Shown: piece by piece, positions 1,612 to 60,174 of the stretch
How positions within the stretch are numbered: the first letter of the stretch is position 1
How the letters are laid out: every line of letters begins with the position of its first letter
Origin: Narcine bancroftii
Lineage: Eukaryota
DNA length: 64,000 nt
Direction of reading: 5' to 3'
Assembly: GCF_036971445.1 (NCBI RefSeq)
Contig: NC_091475.1
Location: 12,090,001 to 12,154,000, forward strand
The notes under the pieces: model-generated
Databases searched by the model: none
Seen by the model: only the letters and a program-made list of their open reading frames with translations
Told to the model about the DNA's origin: nothing
Position numbers and translations under genes: made by a program

Positions 1612-1623
1612 AATCTATTCCAG

Positions 1624-13594
<11,971 letters not shown>

Positions 13595-15589
13595 AAAGAA
13601 TCCCCCATTCCTCCACGAAATCAAGAATATCCTCTCCCTTATCCTGCACATCAGGAACACACAATGCAGAATAAACTGTGAAAGATACTCTGCCGCATTA
13701 CACAGTGGAATTAAAAAGTCTGCTCTGAACTTGTGTCCATTCACTCCAGGTGTGTCTCAGCAGCACCATCAAGTTTTGTGTTTGATTCTCTCCTCCCCAC
13801 AGATATTCCAGCTTGAATTTGTACATCTGAGGTGAACACAATGTCTTGAGTGTATTAGCAGTTTAAAAGGAAATTTTTTAATTAAAAAAAAAACAAAATT
13901 AGGCTTGAAGTGGAGCACAATTTTAAAAAAAAATGTATAAAAGATTCTGTGACATTTCCTAACGTGTGTTAAAATGTGTTGGAATTGTGAATTAGTGCAG
14001 TGGCTAAATATCCAACTGTTTTATTGACAGTGAATGGGTCAGCATGTGCGTGGGTCTGTGTGCATATGGGTCTACAGTTGTCTATCTGGCAGTATGTGTG
14101 CCGTGCGCTTGTCATTTTAATTCTATCTCCCATTCTGTGGTCTAGATTATTTTTGTCAGAATAATCACGGAGAAGCACTCACCCTTTCAAATGAGGAACA
14201 AAATGGTAACGTTCATTTGTTTCTCGACAACACTCCCCAAACCACATGTATGTATTTTGCATTCTTAGTTTAACTCGCATCAGAGATACAATCCAGAGAC
14301 AGGAAAAGCTTTGTCAGCGACTAAGAAATTGGTGGTCTGCATAACAAGCGACAAATAACAGCTACCTGCCACGTCCACTCATCGAAAGAAGTATTATTGG
14401 AAACTATCGACAAATGAGTTTTCAACAGTGAAGGAGACCCGATCGGTATTCATACATTTCACTTTCCCAGGACTGTGTGGAGGAAATAGTGATGGAAGTA
14501 AACATTATTTATTTGATTGATCTTCTCACTGTGTCCGTAGCTGTTTGATTCAAATGGATGTAGCTTCATGCAACAGGTGTCACCGTCCTCTCCTCATAAT
14601 GAGCATGTTGTGCAACCTGTAGCCTGCATAGAAATTGGGAAATAGTGGCTGCTATTTTTGTTGCAAGCAAATGGCCAAAATTAATTTGACTAAGCTCACC
14701 CTACTTGATAGAACCACAGAAAATTACAACACTGAAAACAGGCCCTTCTAGTCTGTGCCAAACTATTATTTTACCTAATCCTACTGCTTCGCACCCAGTC
14801 CACAGCCCTCCAAATCAATCCCAGCCAATATTTAGCACTAAATTGGGCGCATTCAATTCTGATAAAAGAATGTAAATCATGACGAAAACCCAGAAATGCA
14901 CTAGTTCCAATATTTGCCACAGGATTTTGCAGCAGAGAGTGGAAATCAAGCATTGTTAAAACCATTATATGAGATGAAGGAATGTATAATTCAAACAGAA
15001 ACTTCTTAAAAATAACAAATTAATGGTCTGGAGAGACAGGAAAGCCAAGAAATTGGAAGGATGTCACAAAAGTAAGGGTGGGTCTTACTCAGTTTAGAAT
15101 TTGGAAACTACTGTACTGTTTTGATTTTGAACTGTTATATGACCCAGTGAGAATGAACAAAAAAAAATTTGGTGATGACAAGAGGGTTAAGATACAGGGA
15201 CAGGTGTTTCAATCATTACTAATTTACTTAGGTTTGAATTTAAGTAAATTACATTGGAGATGATTTGGCACATTCCTGGGATACTATGATGTGCTTCAAT
15301 CTTTGGGAGAAATTTAGAAATTCAGTTGCAGTTGAATAATACAGCAGGTACTCCTGAAGGGCACGACCATCAGGATGGAATGTATTCATAGTTCAGTTGG
15401 AATACTTAAAAAAGGGAAAGGCTTTAATCTCCTTTTGAGTTGCTTAATTTTTCTGGTGTCTACCTTTAGGACAGCCCGCTGTAACCTAAATTATGACTGA
15501 GCAGGAAAAAAAGAGGAACAGAATTCTGTAATGAAAATTTCTAAGTCAATCAGTACTTTGAATTTTCAAATTGCTTTACGTGTCTTCTG

Positions 15590-16589: not shown

Positions 16590-16925
16590 ACTTCTTGCCC
16601 CGAACAAAGATGGCGGATCGGCTGTTGGCCGCGCCTCTGAAACAATCCTGTACCACCATTGGCTGCTCCTCGCCGGCGCCTCCATTTCTCATTGGTTGAA
16701 AATGCGCTTACTTGTTGAACGCCCAAGGCCGACCAATAGGCTCGCGGGGGGCGCGTGACGTGTTTAAGGCGGCAAATGCGAGGTGGGCCGGGGCCGGAGA
16801 TCGGCGGGAGAGGAGAAGCGCCCCGGCAAGGTTGTCATCACCGCGGGGCGAAGCGAGGTGAGCCCCCCCCGTTTTCGGGCCGTTGCTGCGGGGGGCGGGG
16901 GTTTGGAACTTCGCCTCACCGTCAA
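16590..16925 (+). promoter_or_regulatory. CpG-island promoter and non-coding exon 1 of the HINFP-like gene
   Basis: High CpG density; YY1-type AAGATGGCGG 16607-16616; CCAAT boxes at 16658-62 (ATTGG), 16691-95 (ATTGG) and 16733-37; GTGACGTG 16755-62; E2F-like GGCGGGA 16803-09; GAG|gtgagc donor after 16857. Confidence 0.75.
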
Positions 16926-16926
16926 C

Positions 16927-19270
16927 GGTGTGGAGGGGGGGGTTCCTGATCCTTGGGTGTGGAGGGGGGATCCCTGATCCTCGGGTGTGGAGGGGGGGAG
17001 GTCCCTGATCCTTGGGGGTGGAGGGGGGATCCCTGATCCTTGGGTGTGGAGGGGGGGAGGTCCCTGATCCTTGGGGGTGGAGGGGGGATCCCTGATCCTT
17101 GGGTGTGGAGGGGGGGTCCCTGATCCTTGGGTGTGGAAGGGGTGGGTCCCTGATCCTTGGGAGTGGAGGGGGGGTCCCTGATCCTTGGGTGTGGAGGGGG
17201 GGTCCCTGATCCTTGGGTGTGGAAGGGGTGGGTCCCTGATCCTTGGGAGTGGAGGGGGGGAGGTCCCTGATCCTTGGGGGTGGAGGGGGGGAGGTCCCTG
17301 ATCCTTGGGGGTGGAGGAGGGATCCCTGATCCTTGGGTGTGGAGGGGGGGTCCCTGATCCTTGGGTGTGGAAGGGGTGGGTCCCTGATCCTTGGGAGTGG
17401 AGGGGGGGTCCCTGATCCTTGGGGGTGGAGGGGGGGTCCCTGATCCTTGGGTGTGGAGGGGGGGCTCCCTGATCCTTGGCAGTGGAGGGGGGGTCCCTGA
17501 TCCTTGGGGGTGGAGGGGGGGAGGTCCCTGATCCTTGGGTGTGGAGGGGGGGGTTCCTGATCCTTGGGTGTGGAGGGGGGATCCCTGATCCTCGGGTGTG
17601 GAAGGGGTGGGTCCCTGATCCTTGGGAGTGGAGGGGGGGTCCCTGATCCTTGGGGGTGGAGGGGGGGTCCCTGATCCTTGGGTGTGGAGGGGGGGAGGTC
17701 CCTGATCCTTGGGTGTGGAGGGGGGGAGGTCCCTGATCCTTGGGTGTGGAGGGGGGGGTTCCTGATCCTTGGGTGTGGAGGGGGGATCCCTGATCCTCGG
17801 GTGTGGAAGGGGTGGGTCCCTGATCCTTGGGAGTGGAGGGGGGGTCCCTGATCCTTGGAGGTGGAGGGGGGATCCCTGATCCTTGGGTGTGGAGGGGGGG
17901 TCCCTGATCCTTGGGTGTGGAAGGGGTGGGTCCCTGATCCTTGGGAGTGGAGGGGGGGTCCCTGATCCTTGGGGGTGGAGGGGGGGGTCCCTGATCCTTG
18001 GGTGTGGAGGGGGGGGTCCCTGATCCTTGGGTGTGGAGGGGGGGGTCCCTGATCCTTGGGTGTGGAGGGGGGATCCCTGATCCTTGAGTGTGGAGGGGGG
18101 ATCCCTGATCCTTGAGTGTGGAGGGGGGATCCCTGATCCTTGAGTGTGGAGGGGGGATCCCTGATCCTTGAGTGTGGAGGGGGGATCACTGATCCTTGAG
18201 TGTGGAGGGGGGGTCCCTGATCCTTGGGTGTGGAGGGGGGGTCCCTGATCCTTGGGTGTGGAGGGGGGGGTCCCTGATCCTTGGGTGTGGAGGGGGGGGG
18301 GTCCCTGATCCTTGGGTGTGGAGGGGGGATCCCTGATCCTTGAGTGTGGAGGGGGGATCCCTGATCCTTGAGTGTGGAGGGGGTATCCCTGATCCTTGAG
18401 TGTGGAGGGGGGGGTCCCTGATCCTTGGGTGTGGAGGGGGGGTCCCTGATCCTTGGGTGTGGAAGGGGTGGGTCCCTGATCCTTGGGAGTGGAGGGGGGG
18501 TCCCTGATCCGTGAGTCTTGAGGGGGGGGTCCCTGATCCGTGTCTTGAAGGGGGGGTCCCTGATCCGTGAGTCTGGAGTGGGGGTCTCTGATCCGTGGGT
18601 GTGGAGGGGGGTCCCTGATCCTTGGGTGTGGAGGGGGGGTCCCTGATCCTTGGGTGTGGAGGGGGGGTCCCTGATCCTTGGGTGTGGAGGGGGGGGTCCC
18701 TGATCCTTGGGTGTGGAGGGGGGGGTCCCTGATCCTTGGGTGTGGAGGGGGGATCCCTGATCCTTGAGTGTGGAGGGGGGATCCCTGATCCTTGAGTGTG
18801 GAGGGGGGATCCCTGATCCTTGAGTGTGGAGGGGGGATCCCTGATCCTTGAGTGTGGAGGGGGGGTCCCTGATCCTTGGGTGTGGAGGGGGGGTCCCTGA
18901 TCCTTGGGTGTGGAAGGGGTGGGTCCCTGATCCTTGGGAGTGGAGGGGGGGTCCCTGATCCGTGAGTCTTGAGGGGGGGGTCCCTGATCCGTGTCTTGAA
19001 GGGGGGGTCCCTGATCCGTGAGTCTGGAGTGGGGGTCTCTGATCCGTGGGTGTGGAGGGGGGGTCCCTGATCCTTGGGTGTGGAAGGGGTGGGTCCCTGA
19101 TCCTTGGGAGTGGAGGGGAGGTCCCTGATCCGTGAGTTTGGAGGGGGGGGTCCCTGATCCGTGAGTCTGGAGTGGGGGTCTCTGATCCGTGGGTGTGGAG
19201 GGGGGGGTCCCTGATCCGTGGTGGGGGGGGCCCGGCCCGATATGTGGGCGTGGATGCCCCTGATCCGTGG
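16927..19270. repeat. G-rich minisatellite, unit about 27-30 bp (GTGGAGGGGGGGTCCCTGATCCTTGGGT and variants), roughly 80 units
   Basis: Directly visible, with variant units and higher-order blocks. Confidence 0.98.
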
Positions 19271-21612
19271 GTGTGGGGCCTTGGTCACAATGGCAGTGTT
19301 ATTTGGTTCAGGATCAAGGTCAGGGCTTGGGGTAAAAACACAGCAGTGCTGGGGGGATTTCGGCCTCTCTCTATGTCCACAGTGTGTGTGTGTATATACA
19401 TGTATTTATATATATAAAACTAATGTTTTGGGCTGAGCTCAAGGGAGTAAAGGAGAAGAATGGGAGGGGGGAGGAGTGTGAATTGGACGTGATAAGGAGG
19501 AAAGGTGACCATTGATTTTGGGTCTGTGAAAGGATATGGAGGGAAAAGGAGAGAGAAAACTGCTGGAGAAAGGAGGAGGGATGGGGTGTGGTTTAACGCA
19601 AGCCAAAGTTAGTTGTTTTTAGATTTGTTGTATGTGACAACCCTGAGATTCTTTTCTTTACCCCCCCCTGCTGCAGGTGAGGTAGTCAGAAGATGAGGTG
19701 TTTCGCCTCCAGTTTGCGGGTGGTCTCAGTCTGGGTGTGACCGTGGACAGGCGTGCCGGAAAGGGAACAGGGCAGGGAATTGGAATGGGAGATCCAAGAA
19801 GGCTCCTTCTATAAGGCAAAAAAAATCCTGAATGTAAAGGTGGAGATTCACTGCCTGTGCGTCAGAATGCTTTCTAAATGGTCCATGAGCGGTCGCAAGG
19901 CAGCGGCTCCAATCCCTCTCCAAGTTAGTGCTAGAGGTGGAGTGGTGTGCTCCGCCTTGCTGCATAAAGGTACAACCGCTGCAAGTGGCTGGCTTGGGGC
20001 TGGCTGATGATGTCGCCAGCCCATGACCCATCTCACTTCTCTCTCTCTCTCCCATTCACTCACCCCTCTCCCTCCATGAGTGGACGGTGGGGGCTATCAG
20101 GGGTGGCCAGGCCATCGGGGCGGGCTGTGTCGGCCCTGCCTGCCTCTGGTCCTTCGCCGTGCTGCTTTGGCCTTCGGGGTAGCTCATCGGTGCTAGAGGC
20201 TCAATACACAGCAAAGCAATGGCTGTCTTCCCTATCCATAATTCCCACGCAGCTAGAACCATTCTGGGAAACACAGTAGTTATGGGTAGGGAAGACAACC
20301 ACTGCTCTGCAGAGTATTTATGATGGGTGATACCAAAACGCCCTGAGATTGTCATCTCACTCGTTGGCAAAAACCAAAGTAAAATCTGCAGAAACCACTT
20401 GCCTGAAATCAAACAGAAAATGAAGCAAACACTCAGCAGGTCAGGCATCATCTATGGAGAGTTAAAAAGTTAACATGCCAGTTCTTGTTCAGCACGGATG
20501 CCGCCAAACCAGCAGAGTGTTTACAGCATTTCTTTTGAGTTTGGAGATTCTGCCAAGAAGGTCTCCAGGAAAATGTTTGCTTATTGTGTACCATAAAGAC
20601 CTTTTGTATCTTTACCAGCTTCATTCTCCACAACACTTCATAATTTGCAATTTTTGGGTTCAATGTTGTTTTATTTGGAGTAAACATAACCGACTCTAAA
20701 CTGGCTGCTCTAAACTGTACACCTTTCCAGCCTGTTCTGATCTTGACAGGGATGTTAAAATGATGGCTCAGCTGAATTGTTAGTTCTGCTTGTTGTGAAG
20801 TATCCTAAGGTATTATTCAGGTCACTGATCCTGTTCAGAGCCATTCAGAATGTGACTAGAATGCTAGATTCTGAATTGCATGGTAGTTTGTGGAACTTTG
20901 CTGCTCTACGCCATTGTAAAAAAACATTTTGCAGCATTCTATAAGTTTATTATCATCTGACTATACATGTATAACCCGACACAACAGCATTTCTCCGGAC
21001 CATGGTGCATACAGACACATACTGCATGTACATAAAGATTTAAAATTTAAAAATGTGTAAACTGCATAAATAGTTTGGGATGATTTACACTGTTCATCAA
21101 TCTCAAGGCCAATGGGAAGAAGCTGTTTCCCAGCCTGGCAGTCCTGATTTTGATGCTCCAGTAACTCCTTTATGGTATAAGTTCAGGTATTTGTCATTTT
21201 AATTTTAATTTGACCCTAAAGAAGAATCTTATGCATTGTGTTTTACAATTCTAGTAATTCCTTTAATGTTGCAGATCCCTTAGGTTTTCTTTCCCCTGTA
21301 AAGTTTGAACCCTCTTTCCTATGCTTTTTGATCATTTGTAATTTTCCTGAAATTTGCATGAGCCATCCAATCTTTGTCTGCCTTAATATGGAATTAAATT
21401 TTGTTAGCAGAAATATATTTCACCCATAGGTGAAAATGAATATTTGCAGATAATGTCCAAGGAAAATGGTTGTTTTCTGATAGGTGATTTTCTTTTTAGC
21501 TGAGAATGATTTTTCGAACATTAAAAATTCAGTTCTCTTTTCCAACTTCTACAGCAGAGTGGAGGTGTGAGTGAGAAAAAGTGGTATGATTCCAGTGAAT
21601 TTCATTAAGAAA

Positions 21613-21769
21613 ATGGCCCCTGGAAAGAGCATCAAATACTTGGAGCTGGTGCTGCCTTGTGAATGGACAGATTGCACATTTGTTGGGAAGACAATGGAGG
21701 AATTCTGTGATCATATTGCTGCACATTTAAAAGAGCATCTTAATGAGTATGAAAGTTTTGGAGAATTGG
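21613..21769 (+). CDS. HINFP: HINFP-like coding exon 1 ([23 protein letters not shown]...[11 protein letters not shown])
   Basis: Acceptor ctacagCAG at 21552-57; aaaATGg Kozak context; G|gtatgt donor. In-frame upstream ATG at 21586. Confidence 0.9.
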
Positions 21770-24700: not shown

Positions 24701-27700
24701 CCCCTGAGCCGCTCGCTCTCCCCGCTCCCCTGAGCCGCTCGCTCTCCCCGCTCCCCTGAGCCGCTCGCTCTCCCCGCTCCCCTGAGCCGCTCGCTCTCCC
24801 CGCTCCCCTGAGCCGCTCGCTCTCCCCGCTCCCCTGAGCCGCTCGCTCTCCCCGCTCCCCTGAGCCGCTCGCTCTCCCCGCTCCCCTGAGCCGCTCGCTC
24901 TCCCCGCTCCCCTGAGCCGCTCGCTCTCCCCGCTCCCCTGAGCTTTCATTTATTGTAGAATCATGCAGCCCACTATTCAATTACTGACACACCATCTGGC
25001 CACACATGGCAAAAGGTTGGCCGCCCCTGGGCTAGATAGTAGTAAGACAGTCTAGGACCAGACAACAAGCAAGCCCTCAGAATTAAAGAATGTCCTTTTA
25101 GAACAGGGATGAGGAGAGGTTTCATCAATCAGAGGATTGTGAATGTGTGGAATTCATTGCCACAATTTAGAGGCCAAGTCACTGGAAATAGTTAAAACAT
25201 TTCTTCATTAGTAAGGGCATGAAAGGTTATGGGGTCAAGATAGGAGAATGAAATTGAAAGGAAAAATAGATCAGCTGTGATTTGAATGATGTAGCAGACT
25301 CAGTGCTGATTCTGCTCCTGTGTCTTATGAAAACTTAAATTTTGCACACCAAGCATTGTCTGAATACTTTGAGAAAATTAATCCAGTAGAATCCCCATTA
25401 TTCGGCACCGACTGGGATTGTGGATGTCAGATATGCAAATTTTCTGGTTGACTTGAGACACAATGTTCTAATGCCTAATTAATATACTTGCATTAAGATG
25501 CAAGGATTGACAACGAGATAGACAACAGACTCGCCAAGGCAAATAGCGCCTTTGGAAGACTACACAAAAGAGTCTGGAAAAACAACCAACTGAAAAACCT
25601 CACAAAGATTAGCGTATACAGAGCCGTTGTCATACCCACACTCCTGTTCGGCTCTGAATCGTGGGTCCTTTACCGGCATCACCTACGGCTCCTAGAACGC
25701 TTCCACCAGCGTTGTCTCCGCTCCATCCTCAACATTCATTGGAGCGACTTCATCTCCAACATCGAAGTACTTGAGATGGCAGAGGCCGACAGCATCGAAT
25801 CCACGCTGCTGAAGTTCAAACTGCGCTGGGTAGGTCACGTCTCCAGAATGGAGGACCATCGCCTTCCCAAGATCGTGTTATATGGTGAGCTCTCCACTGG
25901 CCACTGAGATAGAGGTGCACCAAAGAAGAGGTACAAGGACTGCCTAAAGAAAGCTCTTGGTGCCTGCCACATTGACCACCGCCAGTGGGCTAATCTCGCC
26001 TCAAACCGTGCATCTTGGCGCCTCACAGTTCGGCGGGCAGCAACCTCCTTTGAAGAAGACCGCAGAGCCCACCTCACTGTCAAAAGACAAAGGAGGAAAA
26101 ACCCAACACCCAACCCCAACCCACCAATTTTCCCTTGCAACCGCTGCAACCGTGTCTGCCTGTCCCGCATCGGACTTGTCAGCCACAAACGAGCCTGCAG
26201 CTGACGTGGACATTACCCCTCCATAAATCTTCGTCCGCGAAGCCAAACCAAAGAAAGAAAAAAGATTAAGAATACACCATTTAAAAGGTAAAAGACAGTG
26301 CAAAATGTAAAGTGATTTGAATAAAATCAGTATTGTACTCTTTAATTATGTAAAATTCACTATAATCAGGTAATTTCTGTAACAACGATGTGCTAGCTGC
26401 TACACTAACCATGCTACCATCGTAATTAACCCACCCTCCTGCAAGTTTTCAGATAAAGCCTTACAAATATACCTAATACTAAAAAAAGATAAATAATGTT
26501 ATTAGACAGGGATAGGGAAAGATTTTGGGAAAGTCGCTCCAGCAGCATCGGTTGGCTCTTCATCTTCACAACAAAGCAACTTTATTCAAACAGCTGTTGT
26601 GAGCAGGGCACGACCGAGGCACTCCGCTGGCTGAATGTTTGCTCCCATCTTCACCATGTGTTGCTTCGGAGAACATTTACTTTTACATGAGCATCTTCCT
26701 CATGCTGACAGTCCGCTCATCTCCACACAAGTGTCCTGGCCAGGCCCTCGGTGCACCTTCCGCGTGCTGACAACCTGGCTTACCTCCACACAAGTGGCAA
26801 CAGCAAGAAAAATGCACATGCATTGCTAGTTCAGCGGGGCAAACCTGCATGTATCTAACGCAACCTCAGCGCTCTCCTGCAGGATCCATCTGCCCAATCT
26901 TATTTATTCGAACTACACATATTTATTTATTTATTTCCTCTCTCTTTTTTTTGCCAGTTATTTGAGTTTCCAATTGATTGAATTCCAGATAATGGGGATT
27001 CTACTGTACAACATATGGAACCTGGGACACTAAGTGGGTGGCGGAAATGGAGTGCTTTCATAACTTTTAAGTAATATTTAGATGAGCACCTGAATTGCCA
27101 AGGTCTAAAAAGCTAAGGAATAAAAGCTAATAAATGGGATTAGTGTCATTGGGTAATTGATGATGGGCATGTAAATGGTGGATGGTATGGCCTATTTCTT
27201 TAGTGTATGATTCTGGGTTTTTTTTCTGGTAAACATTTTACTAGCTAGTTTTGAAGTGTCCACCTCTGCCTGGTACCTGGTGATTATTGAGGATTGGGCA
27301 CAAAAATAAAATGCATTGTTCAGACTCATAAGTTATCGTTGTGTAAATTACTTTTCTTTCACTCTCTTTCCAGATGAGTTCCAGTGCCTCTGGCGAGGCT
27401 GTGGATTCCTGGCAGTGGAAGGGCCCAATGAGTTGGTGGTACATGTCAACTTCCACAGCTATCATACAAAGCTGAAATACTTCGGTTCAGAGCTACAACG
27501 ACTTCGTCCTGATTTGCCAATGTGCTCCCTGGACAGCCAGAACCAAAATCTGATCCCAGAGATTGCAGAGACTTTCACTTGCCAGTGGGAGTATTGTGAT
27601 GTAAGTATAGACCTTGATCTTGCTTTAATACACCTAGAAAGAAAAGTAGAGCTGGCCACAAATTGTCAAGAAAAAAAATAGCGATGAAGGTCAAGAAATT

Positions 27701-36700: not shown

Positions 36701-39700
36701 GTTTCCTTCAACCATCTTTAACTCCTGATCCTCTGCCTAGCCCGACTAAACCTTTAGATCCTTTATTTTGTAGTAATCACTTTTTACACAATAGAAAGAG
36801 GCCAAAAAAAAGCTAAAAATGAATTAAAACAAATGGAGATTTTTGTGGCAGCACACATCTGGCGGTCCAAACGGGGCCGGTTCGCTCGCAGAGATGTGCG
36901 CTGCCACAATTTTTTATTTCGTATTTTAATTTGTGTTTCTCTTTACTAGTGAACCAGTTTAAGTGTCCCCTCTGTGATATGACCTGCACTACTTTCTCCT
37001 CATTAAGGACCCATATCAAGTTTCGCCACTGTTATGAGAGGCCCTATGGGTGTGACTTTTGTGAGAACAGGTAACTTGATTTGCTCCATATTACTTGGTA
37101 TTAGCATATTGATGTAGATAAAAGGGTTGATTCAAATTTCAAGAAATTTGGGACTCCCAATAATGAAAACAAGGAAACAGCCACAAGGAACACGTGCAGG
37201 AAAATAACTTTCTCTTCTCGAATTCTTGGCCCATAAAGGTGGTGGACACCAGATCATTCGGTACATTTAAGACAGATAAATATTTCAAGATTGATGGTCG
37301 TGAGGAGGTAAAGTCTGTGTAAATCAGACCTGTTTGTATTCAATGGTGGCCTTCTGCTTATCTTAGATTCTTGATCAAGAATGCAGTAAAAGTGCAGATT
37401 TTATTGAACTATACTCCTATTGTGTCATACATTTTGCTCATAAGTTGCATGATGAGTTCCTTCCTCTTGGACAACCCTTTCGAGTCAAGCATGACATTTT
37501 CATTTCCAGTTTGGCAGGCTTTAAGAAGGCTAACTAAGCCATAAAGGGACCCTTTCGAGCTAGCACCCACCATTCCTAGTGATCATGATTGATCATCCAC
37601 ACCCAGTACCCCGTTCCTGCCTTCTCCCCATATTCCCTTGACTCCACTGTCTTTGAGCTCTATCTAACTCTTTCTCGAAAGGATCCAGAGGATTGGCCTC
37701 CACTGGCTTCTGAGGCAGAGCATTCCATAGATTCTACTTCAAGGTTACTTTAGTTTTATTGAAAGATTGTTTTCATTGGTTACCAGGCAATGCTTTTACT
37801 CTGCCAGAAATTGGAGTTAAGTACTGGTGTATAAAATCAGGATGATTAGATGGAAATATTGGGGTATGTTGTTGTCTTTCCTCCATTTACACTAGGCTTC
37901 TATGTACTTCTGGCAAAGGAAGTTTTGGTTTTCAAATTTTATTCCAAATGTTGTTCACTTATTTCAGTGATTCTAACCGTTGGTGGAAATTCTCTTCTAT
38001 AGACATTAGAAGCAGGAGTAGGCCTTTCGAGCTAGCACCCACTATTCCTAGTGATCATGACTGATCATCCACACCCAGTACCCCGTTCCTGCCTTCTCCC
38101 CATATTCCCTTGACTCCACTGTCTTTGAGCTCTATCTAACTCTTTCTCGAAAGGATCCAGAGGATTGGCCTCCACTGGCTTCTGAGGCAGAGCATTCCAT
38201 AGATTCTACTTCAAGGTTACTTTAGGATTATTGAAAGATTGTTTTCATTGGTTACCAGGCAATGCTTTTACTCTGCCAGAAATTGGAGTTAAGTACTGGT
38301 GTATAAAAGCATTGATGAATTTCACAAACAATGTCTGTTTTATTGAGAGGTGAATCCTGAAATATAAGGTGGGCGTGATTTTCAGAATTTCATTATTGGA
38401 CCTACGTTTGTATGATGGGCTTTAAGTTTATCCACTCGCATGTTTCTGATTCTAGTTCTAGGGAAATAATTAGCATGGAAATAAGCCTTTCACCCACTGG
38501 ACTGCACTAATCCCATTTTTCTTCACTAATTCCCATCTTCCATCCATTCTCTTAATTCGACTGCCCTCCACCATGTTAGAGCAATTTACAATAGCAAATT
38601 AACCTCCCAAAAAGCCCCTCTATGGCATATGGGAGGAAACTAGAGCTACAGATTTATTGTCAGAGTACATTCATGACATCGCATGCAATCCTGAGATTCT
38701 TTTTCCTAATTGTAATTCCTAAGAATTACCACTTAGTGGTTCTGGTGCCCAACCTTTTATACGGGATCGTCGGGACCAGAAACTTGTCATTGTTCGGAAT
38801 CTTCCAGATTTTTGAATCATTTTAAAATTGAGTGCCTTTAAGCAAATGCTTCATTCCTAGCTCCACTGTCCCCTCTGGCAAGCCCAGAGTTCGCCAGAAT
38901 GTGGCAACAGCCCAATGAGCAGAGTGGTTCCAGCTGCGTGGGGGAATTATGGGTAAGGAAGTCGGCCATTGATCCTGCATTGAGCCAGCCTTCGCCTGCT
39001 CCTCTCCCAAAAGGTGTTGGGCGCTGAGAGTCACCTTTCCACCGAAGATGAGAGAGGATGCCCAGGCATGACTGGGGGGGGAGCCTTCCTCTGAAAACAG
39101 AATATTTGCACAAAATTTTTTAAAGCTCAGTTATATTTCATTCAACCTCAAATGTCCAGCCTCCGAAATTACAGCAACTCAGCCTTATTTAGTGTAAACA
39201 CCTGCCTGTGTGAACAGCCATTCCGGAGTTAAGTATGCTAATTTATTACAGGAAATTAATGTTACTTATATATAAAAACCATGTTTGATGAGCCGATGTC
39301 ATCTACTGAAAAAATTGACCGGTTTTTGGAGGTTGCCGGTATTCGAAATCTCAGATAAAAGTTGGGTACCTGTAATGGAAAACAAACTGTACAAGAATGT
39401 AAACAGATAACAAAATGTAAACAAACCTACTGTAGTATGGAGGGAATTTAAAAAAAATTGAAGTGCAAAAGTAAGTCCTTAAATGAGTCCCTGATTGAGT
39501 TTCTTGTTGAAGAGTCTGATGATGGAGGGGTAGCAGCTGTTCCTGAATCTAATGGTGCGAATCTTGTGGCCTTCTTCATCAGCCTATCAACTTGTGAGAT
39601 CAGAGCGTGTGCTGGGTGGTGTGGATCCTTGATGATTGCTGCTGCTCTCTATCGGCGGCATTCCCTATAGATGTTCTTGATGATGGGGAGGGTTTTGCCT

Positions 39701-42700
39701 GCGATGTCCTAGGCTGTGTCCACTACCTTTTGCAGGGCTTTATGCTCAGGGGTATTGGTGTCCCCAAACCAGACCATAATGCATCTGATCAGCATACGTT
39801 CCACCACATATCTGTAGAAATTTGCCAGGGTTTCTGATATCATTTCCAAACGTCTGCAAACTGAGGAAATAAAGGTGCTGACGTGCTTTCTACGCAATTC
39901 CATTAGTGTGCTGGGTCCAGAAAAGATCCTCCAAGATGGTGATTTCCAAGAACTTAAATTTATTCACCCTCTCCACCTCTCCCCCAATGATCGCTGGATT
40001 ATATACCTCTGGTTTTCCTTCTTCCCTGATGTTAAAAATCAGCTCCTTGCTTCCTAAGGAAACCCAAGCAATCACAGGAAGCACTCAGTTAAGATTGTTC
40101 AGGAATTGCCAGAGCTGTGAGGCAGCAAGTTCGAGCTCAGTGATTAAGGTTGGAGTGAGTGATCCTGGGAAATGTGAGCATCTCTTGACTTGCAGGTGCA
40201 CTCTAATATGGATCCAATATACTGCAGTAATCAACATGTGCACCCCGATCACGCTAGTTAAATATTGTGGATATGTTGTGCCTAAACTTCCAGAAATGTA
40301 CCGCACCAATGACTATTGAAAAAGACTCCATGAAGTTTAGAATTGAGGGAAGTGGGGTTGGGGGGGGTGGGGGGGGTGGTGAGAAGATTTTATGTTAGAG
40401 AAGGTGCTTGGAGGGGAAGAAACAGGAATTCAGAACCGCTTCTCTGAATTGGAGCGAGACGACAGTATCTACATTTTTAAAATTCTAAAACTGACAGGAA
40501 CATTCTTTTATTAATTTATTCTGATCTGAGGAAACAATGGGGTGTTTTTATTAAAATGAATGGAGTAAGTAATAAAACTGCCATGAAATTTGGTATTAGT
40601 AAAAAGAAAAATCAGGAGTTCCTTTTCCAATACAAGCAATTCTTCCTCTTGAGGAGTCTCTCAGGATTGAGGATCATGGATGACTTACTTCCCTTCAATT
40701 CTGTGAGTTCTAAGGTGGCTATTGAGGAGCCACTGTTAAAACCCGTAAATTCTGATTGATGAGGCAGATTGTGAATACCAGGGTGGGGCAGGTGTAGAGT
40801 TTGTAGGTGGTCCACTAGTTGTGCAGGATGTCTGTGCTTGTCTCAAATCTGTTGAGCTGGTGACCTCTTCCCATGACGGAACTCAAAAGTATGACATCAG
40901 TCAAATGACACAACATGCCCAACGTAGCTTTAGTGAGTTACTAGATTCTCAATGCTGGTCATGTTAGTCTGTGAGAAAACTCTGATAGGGTTTGTTAGTC
41001 TTTTTGATGACTGGAAGATTTTGGTGGAGACAACATTGATTGTATTTAATAATTGCTTTTTGCAACAAATAACTTATGAAAATGCTAAAATACCAAGTCT
41101 AAAGTGCTACTTTTCTGTTGGAAACCTGAGCCATACCCTTAGTCAACACAACTAATATAGCTTTTTATGGCTTGCTGTCAATTTTTAATCCGCTATTTCT
41201 GCTCTGAGGAAATTTGAGTGATCTTGGAATATTAAAAGCAGTGTGTGTGTTTTTTATATATATATGTGGGAAAATTTGCTCCTGACTCCAGCATTTGCAG
41301 AATTTTATGGCCTCCTATAAGTGTGAGAGCTTCTTGATGTTGGGATGAAGAGCTTTTCTTCACCATTTCCAAGGCAGGGAGAGTACATCAGTTGTACCTG
41401 AGAAGGATGTTTGGAAATATAGGCCCCCCCCCCCCCCAAAAATCAGTCATAAAAACTTTTGTTTTGCTCTTCCACTTTCATTTGATGGATTACTTTGTTT
41501 AATTTAAAAAAAAAAATCCTGAACCGTAAGTCTGGAAAAGCAATGGTCAAGATGGTTTACTCAATATCGTGCGTAAAGTTGATGGAATTAGAAGTGATGA
41601 TGTGATTGGTTATACAAACCTTTAAAATATTGACACTTTCAATTAACATTTTTCCTCTTCATTGTGGTATCACCATGCACATTTTTGTCTATCTGGATTA
41701 AATTTATGACCATGGTGATCTATTTCCCAAAGTTATTAATGTACATTATTTTGAATATAACAGTATTTTCTGAAAACTCGTGACTTTAAGTTATGCTGTT
41801 CAAAGATGGGTGGCTATGATTGATGTATCAGATTCTGAGTCCAATGTATTTCTCTGAGATACCTTTTTAAAAATTGTTTTTAAGTACCTCCCTCCCCCTA
41901 ATCAAGGTTAGTGATACAAATGGAAGTTTGGAATCCAATAGCGACTTCCAGGCATCAGATGGCGAACTCCTGGACTCTTCAGAGTTTTCATAATTCTTCC
42001 AATCATAATATATTGTAAGAATGGGCTCCACATCTTGACAAATTGAAATTTTCTATCTGTAATATCGTATCTAATTTTCTCCAAGCTGCGGACTCGAAAG
42101 GCCAACATGGCCTGTTTCCGCTCCGTAAATGGTTATATGGTGAAGTAAGTCATTGCATCATGTAAACACTGCATGGGTCGGTGAAGATTCATCCTTCCAT
42201 TTCAGTACAGTTGCTCATCTGGCCATCAGTGTAGATTCTTTCTATTAAAGGCAATGTATAATCCATATTTTAAATTTATTTCCAGTTTTAAGAATTTATC
42301 TGACCTAAGGAAGCACATTGAAACACATAATGATGAGCCCACATACCACTGCAGCTCTGATGGATGTAACTTCAGTGCCCGGAGTGTGCAAACACTTAAA
42401 CAGCACTATAGAAGAATACATGAGGTGAGTGATGCAGTGAAAAGTGATCTATGAATAACTCAAAAAAAATTTATGCACTTTTGAAAACTGAACTTGAAGT
42501 GTGTGGTCGACCCTTTTTCATTTTTTTTGCTTTTTGTCTCTCTCTAACTGTTCATCCATATTTTCCTTTCTTTATCATTTTTTCTCTAAGAACACTTTCC
42601 ATTAATTTACCCACCAGCGTTGTCAGACTCACAGGTCTATAATTGCTAGGTTTACTTTTGAAGCCTTTTTTAAACAGCTACCCTCCAATCTTCTGGCAAC

Positions 42701-45700
42701 TCCTCCGTGGCCAGTGACATTTTAAATATTTCTGTCAGAGGGCTCACTATTTGCCCATTAACCTCCCTCAGAGTCCGAGGGAATATCTTGTCAGGACCCG
42801 GAGATTTATCCACCTTGATTCTCTTAAAATAGCCAGTGCTACCTCCTCATTAATCTGTGTATTATCCATGACCTCACGCCAGATTTCCTTGCTTCACCTG
42901 GCTCAATATTCCTTTCCTTAGTGAAGACTGAAGGAAAAAAAATCATTTAAAATTTCCCCCATCTCTGACTTGTCACATGACCTACCCCTTCTGATCCTCA
43001 AGGGGCCCAATTTTATCTCTTCCTATTATTTTACTTTTAAGTGCTCCTCTTAAGCTTGATCATTGTATTTGACTCCAACACCACCTTTGGCAACATATTC
43101 CAGATACCAAACACTCTTTTATTGTTTAAAAAAAAACCCCTCCTTCCTCTTGCTTTTGATACCCTTACCATGGAATAAAAGATTTGGCTACCCGATTGAT
43201 GCCTTCCACCATTTCATATGAATCTATAAAGTTAACTGTCAGCCTCCTTCACTCCAGGGAAAACAAGTCCAGCCTATCCACCTCACCCCATATATAAAAT
43301 CCTCAAAATCCAGGTGATATCCTGGTGAATTTCCTCTGCATTCTTTCCAGCACAATTCCATTTTTCCTATGATGTGACAACTAAAACTGTGTACAATACT
43401 CCCAGAGTGGTCCAATCAGCACTTTGTAAAAGTTCCAAGCTTGTATTCTGTGCCTCAACCTTTGAAGACAAACCTGCTTTAAGCCTTCTTCATCAATCTT
43501 ATCAACTTGTGTTGCCACTTTCAGGGGATTATGGACTTGAACTTTCTAGTTTTCTCTGTTCATCAGCCTTTCACTCTGTATCGTCTTACCTCTTTAACTT
43601 CCCAAAAATGTGGTAACTGGAGGTCTGTTTGGGTGCTAGTGACTTCGGAGCATATGGAACTGTTGCATTTAGTCCCTCATTTAAATATGGTGTTGCACTG
43701 GATTTTAGTGGCTTGCATACCATCTTGTGGAAGAAAAGGCCACGGGAATACAGTGACTTTAAAAATTGCACTTGAACAGGAAAAATAACACGAATTGGTT
43801 TTCAAAAAAAAAATTCAAATTACTAATATGTGTGACTATTACATCTTTCCTTTCAAGGGGGAAACAAAACCTCGATACAAGTGTCACATTTGTGCCAAAT
43901 GTTTCTCCTGGGCCTACACATTAACAATGCACCTTCGCAAGATACACCAGCTCAAGTGGCCGTCTGGGCATGCACGATTCAGGTGGGCAAGATTACCTGT
44001 CTAATTATTGCTGATGCAGTTTATTTCTGTGAGCCATTATTATCCTTTAAGAGAGAAAGTTTCAGAAACCCTGTCACCCTGTGGGAGAAAGGCTTATTTC
44101 TTCCCTCTAAACCATTGCCTGTTACATTAAATTTGTGTCTCTTGGCCTTTGAGCCCTTTGCTAAGAGGAAAAATGCAGCGTTTCTACCTATGCTCCCATC
44201 ATTTTGTAGATCTTTGTCTTTTGTCATTTGGCTCTGTTCCAAAGAAAGTGGTCCTATCTTATTTGATCTTTCCTCACAGCTGCAATTTTCCAATCAGGAA
44301 GATCGCCTCTTCATTTGGTCTTGAATAATAAACCTTTTATTTTGGTCACCAGAACTATACACTATACCCAAAGTGTGTTGTGAAATGTGATACTATTCTA
44401 GCATAACCTTACTCCTTTTATTTACTCTGCTTCGATTAATAAATCATGTACGCCTCTTTTCATCAGTTTATGAACATTAACTTCCATCTTTTAAACAAAC
44501 TTGGACTTGCATTTGAAGATTTTTTGGTCCGACCGTTCAATCGAATAATTTACTGCATATTTTTGTGCATTTGCCCAAATGCTTTGCCTTCCTTCTTCAG
44601 ATTGATTTCTATTTGCCACTGTCTTTTCTTCTTCTTCTTGTCAACCGTGCAGCCATTTTTATTGATCATTCTTCCTACGTGCAAGTCTAAATCATTGATA
44701 CACATTGTAGAAAGCAAAGGGGCTTGCTGCCAAGAACCATATAACACAACTGGTGATTTCAAATTACTAATATAATGCGTGACTACTACATCTTTCCTTT
44801 CAAGGGGAAAACAAAACCTTGATGCAAGTGTCACATTTGTTCCAAATGTTTCTCCTGGACTTACAAGTTTGATCTCTAAATACCTGTTAAATGTTTCTCT
44901 GGTATTGAGCTGATTTTAAATCCAATTTTCTGCTCTCTTGATCTTGTAGACTTTTATTTTCTTGGCCTGTGTGCCCAGTGAAATCTTATCAAAAGACTTG
45001 CAAAAATCTATAGGGATTACATAAATACTGTCCTCACATGTTGATATTAGCTCATCAGTTGTAAATTAGACACAGCTTTTCCTTAACAATGAATGTCCCT
45101 AACTAACCTGTACCTTTCTATGTAATAATTAATTTTTCAAAATTGATTTGAATAATGTACTTTCCGTAATAAGCTGATTGATCTATAATTTCTTGACTTT
45201 TCCCTCCTTCTCTATTTATACAAAGTTAGCAATCCAACAATCCTCTAGTATTACTCCTATACCAGGAAGTACTGAAAAATGGTCCTTTTTAATAGCCTGG
45301 TGTGTATTTCATGAGTAGTTGACTTTTTCAAAGGTAACAAATCCCTTAATGCTTCCTCTTTGCAATCCTTATCTCATTTGCGTTTCATGCATATCAGTAA
45401 CATCTCCTTTTGGTGAAGGCAGCTACAAATTACTCTCTTAGTTCCTTTGTTGCCCACATCCCACATAAACGAATCCAAGTTTAGGACTGCATTCAGCAAA
45501 AGATGGCTTCAGTAACTGAACTGAAAATATTAACCTGCGATCTGGGTCCTCTGATTAGGTGGTGGGTGACATCAAATAAGCTCATTTCAATCATGTTCAA
45601 TCAGTGCAGCATCTTTAAAATAGATAGGCCAATGTTTGTACATAACTCAAGTGTGGTAATATTGCAGATTATATTAATCTTTTTCACTTTGGCTTATTGG

Positions 45701-47332
45701 CAGAAAGATTCAAGATTCAATTTATTGTAATGTAATAGACATAGAATTTGTTTTCGTTTGCCATAAGGCAGACAGGTTCGCCATCGGCAGAAATTACCTG
45801 AATTTTGCCCTTTACAATCCGAGAAAGAGAAGCAAGAAAGAGTTTCCTCAGAGTCACCATCTGTCCCTGGATTTGCCTCCAGCGCTTCCACAGCTACACA
45901 AAGTCCAGTCCAAACTATCAGCAAGCAGCAGAGCTCTAGATCTGATCCTCTGACATGATCAGTACCCTCTCGCATCCCAGTTCTGATACCTGGTATCCAG
46001 CAGTCCACAGCCCAATGTGAATCCCTTGACTGCAGTCGCCAGCAGCCCACAGACTGTGCGGGTTCCTCGCCTTGATTCACCAACACCTCGCTGCCTATGT
46101 GTTTCTACAACTGCAGAACCCCTCACTGGTCTGCCGCCATGGTCACCATCCCTTGGGTCATCTCTGCTTCTCCTCAAACGGGGTGTCCAGCACCAGTCCT
46201 CTGCTTCCCCGGAGTCTGCAACTTCTCATGACTGCTGCCAATCATATGCGCCACCATCTTGATCACAGGCCCTACCGTTGCAATATTTTTAAATAAAACC
46301 ACCACCAGCTCAATTTACAGGTCGTTTAAAGCCTGTACAAGGCTGATGTCAGTCGGACTGGGCGGTTGGCCCCTGCGGGGATGCTGTGTCTCTGCTCTCC
46401 ATGGGTCTGCACCAATGGCAGCCCTGCTGCTACAGCAGATCCAGCTGTTACTCAAAAGTATATCTAGTGGACATTGTAGCTTTGAATTTTTTCCCCCTAA
46501 GTTAAGGGAGAAATACAAAGTATAAAACTGGAGAGTGGCCCTCAACAGGTGTGTGGTTTTTCCCATCAACCTTGGCTGAATTTCAGCCCAGTCCTGGAGG
46601 TGAAAAGTTTTAGTCATCTGTATTTTTCCTACCTGTTGTAGTGGCAGTGATTCAAAGCACTTTATTGGTTATGGAGCATCATGGCACATCCTAAAAAGAT
46701 TTCATGAAAGTGAGGGGGTTTTAATGATACTATTCAACTTCTCAAGTTCTTCATTATCAAAGGTAAAATATTAAATTTTAATAATAAATCACCCAAAAGC
46801 TTATCTTTTGCTTTAACTGTCTAGGTATAAAGAGCATGAGGATGGATACCTCCAGCTGCATATGGTTCGCTATGAAACTGTTGAACTGACGCAGCAAATC
46901 ATCAAGGACCTAGAGAAGAGACATGGCCGCCGAAGGAAAACAATAGACACATGTCTCCCAGCACTGGCCCCCTACCAAAAGCTTCTCTCCAGGAAGCCTC
47001 CAGCTGGAAAAGTAGCAAGGGAGGCTGACTATCTTGTTCCAGCTGCCCAACTAAAATGTGCTGCGCAGCACGAAACCAACCCACCAGCCAAGTCCATGAA
47101 CAGACTCCTGCAGCCAAAGCACTGTGACACTTCAGAAGCCTCAGGAGCAAGTGAGCTGGACAGAGGAGTTTCTGAAAAGGACTCTCCTGTCCACTTTGTC
47201 CTCAGAAATGCAACCAAAGCAGCAGCCAAGCCTGCTGCTACCCTTGAGAGGAATGATGACAGTTCCTACCTAGACCCTATGGAAACATTGGAGAAAGTAG
47301 CCCGGGGGCTTGGGATTCAGATTATTGGGTAG
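21613..47332 (+). CDS. HINFP: HINFP-family zinc-finger protein (histone H4 transcription factor-like), 539 aa; exons 21613-21769, 27374-27600, 31547-31658, 33329-33481, 34735-34812, 36950-37070, 42286-42424, 43858-43982, 46825-47332
   Basis: Nine GT-AG exons sum to 1620 nt in one open frame. HINFP signatures: [60 protein letters not shown]...[11 protein letters not shown]. Family is certain; ortholog versus paralog is uncertain and paralog is favoured. Confidence 0.9.
21960..22500 (-). mobile_element. Penelope-like retroelement 3' fragment (GIY-YIG C-terminus plus terminal repeats)
   Basis: ORF 22217-22486 has [23 protein letters not shown], resembling the PLE motif RKLEEQHLIFRLG.LQP.G.N; flanked by two gagaaactcag...catccataggaagt repeats. 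Confidence 0.75.
23565..25029. mobile_element. Non-autonomous hAT (Charlie-like) DNA transposon
   Basis: Imperfect TIRs cagggttgggtaacct / aggttggccgcccctg; 8-bp TSD ggcaagat (23557-64) and ggctagat (25030-37). Confidence 0.7.
24026..24942. repeat. 26-bp perfect tandem repeat (CCCTGAGCCGCTCGCTCTCCCCGCTC), about 35 units
   Basis: Period 26 read directly; no variant units seen. Confidence 0.98.
25384..27006. mobile_element. Tc1/mariner (Tigger/pogo-like) non-autonomous element with a nested RTE
   Basis: Perfect 18-bp TIR cagtagaatccccattat (25384-401) / ataatggggattctactg (26989-27006), followed by TA. Confidence 0.75.
25497..26264 (+). mobile_element. RTE-clade LINE, 5'-truncated, young
   Basis: Near-open frame [22 protein letters not shown]...[17 protein letters not shown]...[22 protein letters not shown] with one internal stop; (AAAG) tail; candidate TSD ATTAAGA at 25492-98 and 26265-71. 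Confidence 0.9.
27374..27600 (+). CDS. HINFP: HINFP-like coding exon 2 ([12 protein letters not shown]...YHTKLK...CQWEYCD)
   Basis: ttccag acceptor, GAT|gtaagt donor. Confidence 0.93.
28715..30834. mobile_element. Tigger/pogo-like non-autonomous element with a nested L1 fragment
   Basis: TA-cagtacaactccgatt ... aattggagttgaactg-TA terminal inverted repeats. Confidence 0.7.
29968..30521 (-). mobile_element. L1-clade LINE 3' end, 5'-truncated
   Basis: Minus strand [39 protein letters not shown]...KWTP; 10-bp TSD gagccagctt at 29958-67 and 30522-31. Confidence 0.75.
31547..31658 (+). CDS. HINFP: HINFP-like coding exon 3 ([16 protein letters not shown]...SCCWK)
   Basis: ccgcag acceptor, AAG|gtaatc donor. 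Confidence 0.93.
33329..33481 (+). CDS. HINFP: HINFP-like coding exon 4 ([51 protein letters not shown])
   Basis: tttcag acceptor, G|gtatgt donor. Confidence 0.94.
34735..34812 (+). CDS. HINFP: HINFP-like coding exon 5 ([26 protein letters not shown])
   Basis: ttttag acceptor, G|gtaggt donor, phase 1-1. Confidence 0.93.
36155..36610 (-). mobile_element. Young CR1 LINE 3' end with (ATAAC)n tail
   Basis: ORF 36240-36587 has [24 protein letters not shown]...FFTQRVV, uninterrupted. Confidence 0.92.
36950..37070 (+). CDS. HINFP: HINFP-like coding exon 6 ([40 protein letters not shown])
   Basis: tactag acceptor, CAG|gtaact donor, phase 1-2. Confidence 0.93.
37551..38308 (+). repeat. Direct duplication of about 286 bp (37551-37836 and 38023-38308)
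   Basis: Near-identical copies 472 bp apart, covering a CR1 3' end plus adjacent sequence. Confidence 0.92.
38742..39372. mobile_element. Tigger-like non-autonomous element inserted in a Rex1/Babar LINE tail
   Basis: TIR ctggtgcccaaccttttat / ataaaagttgggtacctg, followed by TA. Confidence 0.6.
39375..40050 (-). mobile_element. Rex1/Babar-type LINE 3' fragment
   Basis: Minus strand [22 protein letters not shown]...[10 protein letters not shown] and [23 protein letters not shown]. Confidence 0.8.
42286..42424 (+). CDS. HINFP: HINFP-like coding exon 7 ([46 protein letters not shown])
   Basis: ttccag acceptor, GAG|gtgagt donor. Confidence 0.94.
42590..43560 (-). mobile_element. CR1 LINE fragments
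   Basis: Minus strand [18 protein letters not shown] and [13 protein letters not shown] motifs around 42600-42820, plus an older 3' piece. Confidence 0.75.
43858..43982 (+). CDS. HINFP: HINFP-like coding exon 8 ([41 protein letters not shown])
   Basis: ttcaag acceptor, CAG|gtgggc donor, phase 0-2. Confidence 0.93.
44758..44865 (+). pseudogene. Decayed partial duplicate of HINFP-like coding exon 8 with its acceptor
   Basis: Copy of about 43814-43920; reads GKTKP* with CGA changed to TGA at 44820-22. Confidence 0.88.
46825..47332 (+). CDS. HINFP: HINFP-like last exon ([25 protein letters not shown]...[17 protein letters not shown])
   Basis: gtctag acceptor; HINFP-specific conserved region; TAG at 47330-32. 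Confidence 0.94.
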
Positions 47333-59730: not shown

Positions 59731-59769
59731 GGCGAGTGCCGGACCTCCAGGAAAGGTCAATTCCTGGAG

Positions 59770-60007: not shown

Positions 60008-60174
60008 ATGTCCTCCTGGGGGATGGGGCTGCTGAAGACCTTCGACTCCGATGAGTTTGTGAGCTGGGAAAAAGTCGGATCGGGCGGCTTTGGGCAGGTC
60101 TACAAGATCCGTCACGTTCACTGGAAGACGTGGCTGGCGATTAAATGCCCCCCCAGTCTCCATGTGGATGAGAA
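60008..60174 (+). CDS. RIPK4: RIPK4 (receptor-interacting Ser/Thr kinase 4) first coding exon
   Basis: [55 protein letters not shown](K): kinase Gly loop and AIK lysine matching recalled RIPK4; AA|gtaagt phase-2 donor; synteny with PRDM15. Exon 2 was not found in the window. Confidence 0.95.

What the first reader, a model, noticed from the sequence alone, without database searches (positions are those of the whole stretch)
16590..47332. Intact HINFP-family gene between PRDM15 and RIPK4: probable second HINFP paralog absent from the mammalian locus
Seen: a complete 539-aa HINFP-like frame with its own promoter lies between PRDM15 and RIPK4. Known: in human PRDM15 and RIPK4 are neighbours on chr21 while the single HINFP is on 11q23. 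The protein lacks the poly-Glu tract that follows finger 1 in human HINFP and ends in [11 protein letters not shown]. Inference: an ancient duplicate, possibly from whole-genome duplication, retained in fishes. From memory it may correspond to the little-studied zebrafish gene zgc:112083, which needs checking.
Basis: partly seen in the sequence, partly recalled or inferred. Interest (0 to 1): 0.7.

Follow-up and report, generated by a model that had tools for sequence, protein, structure and literature searches.

The report
Second HINFP gene lost in placentals
This is a working ray gene for an old sister copy of the histone-gene regulator HINFP; the copy is also kept in bony fishes, turtles, crocodilians, many birds, platypus and marsupials, was not found in placental mammals, and has a re-coded last DNA-reading finger, so it probably binds different DNA.

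Summary
Confirmed. Nine GT-AG coding exons (21586-47332, +) give an open 548-aa protein (539 aa from the second ATG); one contig of a probable RNA run joins exons 2-8 as predicted. The gene lies upstream of RIPK4; the PRDM15 label on the other neighbour is recalled. The host is probably a ray. The protein belongs to the zgc:112083 clade (100/100), apart from canonical HINFP; a shark-specific copy is rejected (p-AU 3e-55), and 12 of 14 cartilaginous fishes listed carry both genes. Correction: it is not fish-only. Turtles, crocodilians, many birds, one lizard, platypus, echidna and five marsupials have it; no placental copy was listed. Neighbouring genes point to a vertebrate genome duplication (partly recalled). 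New here: all 11 positions fixed differently between the paralogs lie in the C-terminal half, and the last finger reads R/N/N at helix -1/2/3 in HINFP but W/Y/T in the paralog, which suggests changed DNA specificity. The gene is already in databases; no paper on its origin or function was found.

The parts
16590..16925 (+). CpG-island-like promoter and probable non-coding first exon (donor-like site at 16856)
16927..19221 (.). 28-bp minisatellite, 80 copies, in the probable first intron
21586..21769 (+). coding exon 1 (ATGs at 21586 and 21613; first finger)
   Evidence: tblastn 85-90% to ray orthologs
27374..27600 (+). coding exon 2
31547..31658 (+). coding exon 3
33329..33481 (+). coding exon 4
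34735..34812 (+). coding exon 5
   Evidence: length fits the gap in the X1 contig
36950..37070 (+). coding exon 6
   Evidence: length fits the gap in the X1 contig
42286..42424 (+). coding exon 7
43858..43982 (+). coding exon 8: last zinc finger; recognition helix WAYTLTMH (residues 356-363) at 43909-43932
44758..44865 (+). dead partial duplicate of the intron-7 acceptor and 5' half of exon 8 (90% over 108 bp, in-frame stop)
46825..47332 (+). coding exon 9: conserved RYKEHEDG hairpin and helix (Tyr381), disordered linker, C-terminal helix, stop
47333..48761 (+). 3' UTR, minimum extent (two contigs would end at a CT microsatellite if colinear)
   Evidence: contig lengths, computed; only the part to 47359 was laid
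1622..13597 (+). context: 3' exons of the upstream multi-zinc-finger gene (PRDM15 by recall)
   Evidence: C2H2 exons; the name is recalled, not from a call
60008..60175 (+). context: RIPK4 coding exon 1

Best explanation
An intact, spliced gene for a second vertebrate HINFP (the zgc:112083 clade; 'HINFP-B' below). SHOWN: it split from canonical HINFP after the invertebrate outgroups and before cartilaginous and bony vertebrates parted; it went through a burst of change just after the duplication (stem 0.51 versus 0.05 substitutions per site) and then fixed a different C-terminal half. INFERRED (about 0.8): the duplication was part of an early vertebrate whole-genome duplication that also made the 11q23/21q22 blocks. 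INFERRED (about 0.6): the protein is a nuclear, sequence-specific zinc-finger transcription factor that keeps the HINFP scaffold (N-terminal fingers, Tyr381 module, C-terminal helix) but reads a changed DNA site, because the last finger's base-facing residues went from Arg/Asn/Asn to Trp/Tyr/Thr. It would therefore not substitute for HINFP at histone H4 promoters but control a partly different gene set. SPECULATIVE: its main role is in oocytes and cleavage embryos. It evolved two to three times faster than HINFP in amniotes and was lost at least in placentals.
For: Tree of 34 rows: HINFP-B clade 100/100, vertebrate A+B 100/99, B's inner order follows the species tree. AU tests reject one clade of cartilaginous-fish A+B (p 3e-55) and of mammal A+B (p 1e-6). 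Window protein 80-87% identical to B proteins of sharks and rays, 50-53% to their canonical HINFP. 12 of 14 cartilaginous fishes with a listed B also have a listed A; in the 10 with separate contig lengths the two lie on different contigs, B always on the larger. Synteny: two cyprinid gene models fuse DPAGT1 to canonical HINFP; human order DPAGT1, C2CD2L, HINFP, ABCG4 (PMC5848380, one table passage); mouse order Ripk4, Prdm15, C2cd2, Zbtb21 (PMC4764572); Prdm10/Prdm15 duplicated at the vertebrate root (PMC4760075, passages). Helix: with proteins classed only on their N-terminal part, helix -1 of the last finger is R in 56 of 56 A and W in 99 of 100 B; the exception is a B/A chimera. Invertebrate representatives: R in 43 of 71, W in 0 of 71, so B is the derived state. 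Positions conserved at 90% or more in both clades: 72 same and 0 different in residues 20-251, 44 same and 11 different in 252-400 (Fisher p 5e-5, split chosen after seeing the data). Tyr381 in 54 of 54 A and 89 of 89 B. Zebrafish transcripts per million, zgc:112083 versus hinfp: egg 59 vs 27, 1-cell 75 vs 15, 512-cell 26 vs 22, 1000-cell 74 vs 173 (PMC4140902 Table 1, section read).
Against: No binding data; no HINFP-family structure was listed in the PDB search (15 hits, all other zinc-finger proteins), so which fingers read the CGGAC core is unknown. Across all fingers the diagnostic sites are not significantly enriched at helix positions (4 of 11 versus 19 of 116, p 0.11). Fingers at 199-251 and the N/D/K residues of the finger at 286-306 are largely unchanged, which fits a shared site. 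Canonical HINFP is weakly supported as one clade (53/24), so the root between A and B is unsure. No lamprey, hagfish or named amphioxus sequence was in the tree, so first versus second genome duplication is open. Dehal and Boore found no tetra-paralogon on human chromosome 21 (PMC1197285, one passage). In four marsupials A and B lie on contigs of the same length, so apparently the same chromosome. The pairings C2CD2/C2CD2L, ABCG1/ABCG4, RIPK4/ANKK1 and the place of PRDM10 are recalled. No amphibian B was listed, which speaks against a simple tie to yolky eggs. The egg expression is one unreplicated table. Sequences counted are related, not independent.
Confidence: 0.62

Rival explanations
1. 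Same job, split expression: HINFP-B still binds the histone H4 site and acts as a maternal or tissue-restricted H4 activator; the last finger does not decide the site.
For: 72 conserved sites shared and none diagnostic in residues 20-251; Tyr381 invariant; complementary timing in zebrafish eggs and blastulae; repeated absence from lineages fits dispensability.
Against: R/N/N at -1/2/3 of the last finger is near-invariant in A and replaced by a W/Y/T set just as fixed in B; long stem on B; zebrafish hinfp disruption is listed with a craniofacial phenotype although zgc:112083 is present (PMC10048880, one table row; that row groups several genes).
Confidence: 0.24
2. The aromatic helix no longer reads DNA bases: HINFP-B uses its last finger for protein or RNA contact and works as a cofactor or competitor of HINFP.
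For: Trp and Tyr at -1 and 2 are unusual for base-reading C2H2 fingers (own knowledge); the amniote copies aligned lack three residues of the KWPSGH stretch after the finger and have a decayed following helix (30 of 89 B lack the motif), while the helix letters stay fixed.
Against: Tyr381, recalled as needed for DNA binding in human HINFP, is invariant; all zinc ligands of the finger are kept.
Confidence: 0.12
3. Origin by a local or segmental duplication in the jawed-vertebrate stem, not by whole-genome duplication (concerns origin only; compatible with any function above).
For: No tetra-paralogon on human chromosome 21 in PMC1197285; no jawless-fish sequence; neighbourhood of B seen in this window only.
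Against: A sits beside C2CD2L and ABCG4 in human; the B interval sits beside C2cd2 in mouse; Prdm10/15 split at the vertebrate root; A and B on different contigs in 10 of 10 cartilaginous fishes with separate lengths.
Confidence: 0.17
4. It is the only HINFP of this genome, moved next to RIPK4.
For: This genome could not be searched.
Against: 51% identity to ray canonical HINFP versus 86-87% to ray B proteins; tree and AU test; five named skates and rays carry both genes.
Confidence: 0.01

Closest known systems
zebrafish zgc:112083 (ENSDARG00000037405) and its database orthologs, 'histone H4 transcription factor-like'
   Same: Same clade: 9 of 9 proteins named zgc:112083 group with the window protein; white-shark zgc:112083 is 82% identical; same W-x-Y-T helix.
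   Different: Nothing of substance; the window gene is its ray ortholog. The Danio rerio protein itself was not among the listed sequences. No functional study found.
canonical HINFP (HiNF-P, MIZF), human 11q23.3
   Same: Same finger array, Tyr381 module and C-terminal helix; 116 positions conserved in both clades; 49% identity to chimpanzee HINFP.
   Different: 11 fixed differences, all in residues 252-400, including helix -1/2/3 of the last finger; different locus (RIPK4 neighbour versus DPAGT1/C2CD2L/ABCG4); patchy retention.
invertebrate HINFP (tunicate, echinoderm, brachiopod, mollusc, annelid, spider)
   Same: Outgroup to both vertebrate genes.
   Different: Mostly keep R-G at the start of the last helix like canonical HINFP (R 43 of 71, G 68 of 71); none has W there.

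Membership tests
HINFP family | Array of C2H2 and C2H2-like fingers homologous to HINFP along its length | tested here: met
   9 fingers by pattern; full-length alignment; 58-61% identity over residues 20-405 to chimpanzee and cartilaginous-fish HINFP
HINFP family | HiNF-P-specific conserved region after the last finger, with Tyr381 (boundaries and role recalled; the motif's need for DNA binding cited in PMC8717564) | tested here: met
   Tyr381 in the window and in 143 of 143 proteins counted; hairpin 380-392 and helix 397-412 predicted for the catshark ortholog
canonical HINFP ortholog | Groups with human-type HINFP in a tree | tested here: not met
canonical HINFP ortholog | R-G-N-N-L-T helix in the last finger | tested here: not met
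   WAYTLTMH in the window
canonical HINFP ortholog | Lies beside DPAGT1, C2CD2L, ABCG4 | tested here: not met
   downstream neighbour is RIPK4; human order
canonical HINFP ortholog | Binds the CGGAC core of histone H4 promoters and works with NPAT | not testable with these tools
   needs binding assays
zgc:112083 clade (HINFP-B) | Monophyly with proteins named zgc:112083 | tested here: met
   100/100; 9 of 9 named proteins
zgc:112083 clade (HINFP-B) | Shared position between PRDM15 and RIPK4 in other species | not testable with these tools
   no vertebrate genomes on hand; only contig lengths
vertebrate genome-duplication ohnolog | Duplication dated between invertebrate chordates and crown jawed vertebrates | tested here: met
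   tunicate and echinoderms outside; no cyclostome or named amphioxus sampled
vertebrate genome-duplication ohnolog | Both copies in paralogous blocks with co-duplicated neighbours | tested here: inconclusive
   gene orders and the Prdm10/15 date fit; neighbour pairings recalled; one search reports no tetra-paralogon on chromosome 21

The most novel reading that the evidence does not exclude
An unstudied sister of the essential histone-gene regulator HINFP was re-programmed right after the vertebrate genome duplication: its last finger took a fixed Trp/Tyr/Thr helix, giving a new DNA specificity that has been held from sharks to platypus and koala, with a maternal role in the egg, and its loss is a placental-mammal trait. 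HINFP and HINFP-B would then be a natural pair for finding which finger reads the histone H4 site.
Probability: 0.3. Interest if true: 0.62.

Novelty: new variant of a known kind. Interest (0 to 1): 0.42.

Why it matters
HINFP is treated as a single, non-redundant activator of histone H4 genes (title of Xie et al. 2009 seen in a reference list). That holds for placentals, but most other jawed vertebrates sampled, including zebrafish and monotremes, carry a second gene, which matters for reading fish knock-outs and for annotation, where both genes often bear the same name. The fixed swap in one recognition helix gives a ready domain-swap test of how HINFP reads DNA, for which no structure was found. 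Against that: ohnologs lost in placentals are common, and the gene is already modelled in public databases.

Tried and rejected
No whole genome was held, so the second locus in this species is untested. Literature: '112083'+'zgc' gave 2 papers, one relevant; 'hinfp'+'paralog'+'zebrafish' 3 papers, 2 listed, none on the duplicate by title or abstract start; 'hinfp' alone 360 papers, 40 listed, none on it by title; RIPK4+PRDM15+synteny 2; paralogon search 11; HiNF-P/PSCR search 119, 25 listed; ANKK1+RIPK4+whole genome duplication+evolution 0; hinfp+zebrafish mutant+histone 4, 3 listed. Supplements were not searched, and subscription papers are missing; the primary HiNF-P papers (Medina 2008, Sekimata 2004, Nirala 2021) were not held, so their details are recalled or second-hand. 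Poly-Glu absence and the LGIQIIG ending were rejected as markers of paralogy. The splice-joint table showed only repeat-derived joints among the 15 rows displayed (80 not shown); the splicing evidence comes from the contig pieces. No run on record as RNA was listed. The Atlas did not name the upstream gene; PDB gave only generic fingers for one of its exons. Rfam found nothing in the window. No CGGACG core in the 530 bases of the promoter region scanned. The AlphaFold model of the catshark ortholog has low global confidence (pLDDT 59, pTM 0.29) and was used for secondary structure only; no fold search or complex job was run. P0079 (killifish) is B-type up to the NPEWFYRHV motif and A-type after it; read as a chimeric record and left out, as were P0011, 4 unclassified rows and rows under 440 aa (143 of 166 kept). 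A 'yolky egg' explanation of the distribution was considered and not adopted, as no amphibian copy was listed. Earlier scan findings: none.
Full report
Observation. The window holds a nine-exon HINFP-like reading frame on the + strand from 21586 to 47332. All eight coding introns are GT..AG and the joined frame is open, 548 aa from the first ATG and 539 aa from the second. Ray orthologs in the databases have the same 548 aa and the same leader. tblastn of ray orthologs recovers the same nine exons. A probable RNA run (status guessed by the tool) holds one 1169-nt contig that lies without other letters on exons 2, 4, 7 and 8, with gaps of exactly the length of exon 3 and of exons 5+6; a second contig starts at exon 9 and runs into the 3' UTR. 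The four runs come from one study. A CpG-rich segment at 16590-16925 with YY1-type and CCAAT motifs and a donor-like site is the likely promoter (motif names recalled, link inferred). RIPK4 exon 1 follows at 60008-60175. The upstream gene has C2H2 exons and is PRDM15 by recall only.

Identity. The last exon found six proteins, all from cartilaginous fishes, one named Zgc:112083. The catshark ortholog found 360 proteins, 120 listed; a profile of six amniote copies found 441, 120 listed. A FastTree of 114 rows split them into two groups, and an IQ-TREE of 34 rows with seven named invertebrate outgroups gave the window's clade (B) 100/100 and vertebrate A+B 100/99; canonical HINFP (A) was weakly supported as one clade, 53/24. 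The window protein is sister to a stingray protein, and is 86-87% identical to ray B proteins, 80-83% to shark B proteins and 50-53% to canonical HINFP of the same animals, so the host is probably a ray or skate. Holding cartilaginous-fish A and B together is rejected (p-AU 3e-55), as is holding mammalian A and B together (p 1e-6). Twelve of 14 cartilaginous fishes with a listed B have a listed A (only 15 members per cluster are shown). All nine proteins named zgc:112083 are B. The zebrafish protein itself was not listed.

Distribution. B is not confined to fishes. It was listed for chimaera, sharks, rays, sturgeon, gar and many teleosts; turtles, two crocodilians, ratites, waterfowl, parrots, raptors, owls and seabirds; one cordylid lizard (390 aa, divergent); platypus and echidna; koala, brushtail possum, wombat, tammar and monito del monte. 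Among the 120 listed hits, which run down to scores where canonical placental HINFP appears (499 bits, against 712 for platypus B), there is no placental, amphibian, lungfish, coelacanth, galliform, passerine, dasyurid or opossum B. The seven named placental proteins are all A. These blanks come from a word-seeded search with length limits, so they suggest losses but do not prove them. For mouse, a paper lists seven coding genes in two segments that include Ripk4, Prdm15 and C2cd2, with no Hinfp-like gene (PMC4764572, one passage).

Origin. The split predates crown jawed vertebrates and postdates the tunicate and echinoderm outgroups. Canonical HINFP lies in the order DPAGT1, C2CD2L, HINFP, ABCG4 in human (PMC5848380, one table passage), and two cyprinid gene models fuse DPAGT1 to canonical HINFP. 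B lies next to RIPK4 here, in an interval that in mouse is followed by C2cd2. Prdm10 and Prdm15 were dated to the vertebrate root (PMC4760075, passages). From memory, C2CD2/C2CD2L, ABCG1/ABCG4, RIPK4/ANKK1 and PRDM15/PRDM10 pair 21q22 with 11q23-24. In 10 of 10 cartilaginous fishes with separate contig lengths B is on the larger and A on a smaller contig; in four marsupials both are on contigs of one length. One early paralogon study found no tetra-paralogon on chromosome 21 (PMC1197285). I put genome-duplication origin at about 0.8; first versus second round is open without jawless fishes.

Mechanism. The B stem is 0.51 substitutions per site against 0.05 for A; from each clade's ancestor, amniote B tips lie at 0.66-1.12 and amniote A tips at 0.29-0.38 (the root position is uncertain). 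I classed 166 cluster representatives on their N-terminal part only (56 A, 106 B, 4 unclassified) and then read the last finger: helix -1 is R in 56 of 56 A and W in 99 of the 100 B with that finger; the exception is a chimeric record. Among 71 unnamed or invertebrate representatives outside the vertebrate clade, -1 is R in 43 and W in none, so B carries the derived state. Of positions at least 90% conserved in both clades (54 A, 89 B kept), 116 agree and 11 differ; all 11 lie in residues 252-400, four in the last finger (T355S, R356W, N358Y, N359T). The regional skew has p 5e-5, with the split chosen afterwards and related sequences counted; enrichment at helix positions over all fingers is not significant (p 0.11). 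Tyr381 is invariant; it is recalled as needed for DNA binding, and a review passage says the motif that holds it promotes DNA binding to a CGGAC core (PMC8717564). By the usual C2H2 geometry (own knowledge), positions -1, 2, 3 and 6 face the bases, so the simplest reading is a factor with the HINFP scaffold and a changed site. No HINFP structure was listed, so a shared site or a non-DNA role of the finger remain live. A low-confidence model of the catshark ortholog shows the finger array, a hairpin and helix at 380-412, a disordered stretch at 413-530 and a terminal helix at 532-542. The only expression data found: zgc:112083 exceeds hinfp in zebrafish eggs and one-cell embryos and falls behind at 1000 cells (PMC4140902, section and Table 1 read); that paper lists it simply as a homolog.

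The poly-Glu run is long in primates, shorter in marsupials and absent from canonical HINFP of chimaera, lungfish and turtle; canonical shark HINFP also ends LGIQIIG. Neither is diagnostic; the helix and the tree are.

Novelty and score. The gene and its orthologs are modelled in NCBI, UniProt and Ensembl-derived sets, often under the same name as HINFP. The searches listed under Tried and rejected found no paper on the duplicate's origin, range or function; supplements and subscription journals were not seen. It is a family member but not a canonical HINFP ortholog. I rate it a new variant of a known kind, interest 0.42: solid and testable, but ohnologs lost in placentals are common and the change of specificity is inferred.

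Noticed in passing
window 44758-44865: Partial local duplicate of 43814-43918 (intron-7 acceptor plus the first half of exon 8), 90% identical, with an in-frame stop; a dead exon copy inside intron 8.
   Followed up: yes
window 16927-19221 and 24026-24943: Two GC-rich minisatellites: 28 bp x 80 right behind the promoter, nearly CpG-free, and a perfect 26 bp x 35 CpG-rich array in coding intron 1; both give long spurious ORFs.
   Followed up: partly
P0038, P0083, P0115 and other amniote B proteins: Amniote copies lack three residues of the KWPSGH stretch and have a decayed helix after Tyr381, while fish and shark copies keep both; may mark a second functional change before the losses.
   Followed up: partly
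window 47189-47329; A and B proteins: Two short C-terminal motifs, a V-Y/H-x-V/E-L strand-like motif and the terminal helix ending LG[IM]x[IV], are shared by both paralogs across a disordered tail; the helix is worn in primates, platypus B and koala B. Probable partner-binding motifs.
   Followed up: no
P0079: Killifish UniRef entry that is B-type in its first 130 residues and A-type after the shared NPEWFYRHV motif; probably an assembly chimera.
   Followed up: partly
P0480, P0484: Cyprinid gene models that fuse DPAGT1 to canonical HINFP; useful as evidence of adjacency.
   Followed up: yes
P0040; cluster of P0249: A turtle canonical HINFP isoform ends in a Sushi domain, and sushi-domain proteins cluster with a teleost HINFP, hinting at a small sushi gene next to canonical HINFP.
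   Followed up: no
window 25500-26200, 36240-36665, 58441-58624, 59060-59830: Fragments that look like LINE reverse-transcriptase remnants (by recall), heavily covered in the laid runs where laid, and a 73-bp tandem repeat upstream of RIPK4.
   Followed up: no
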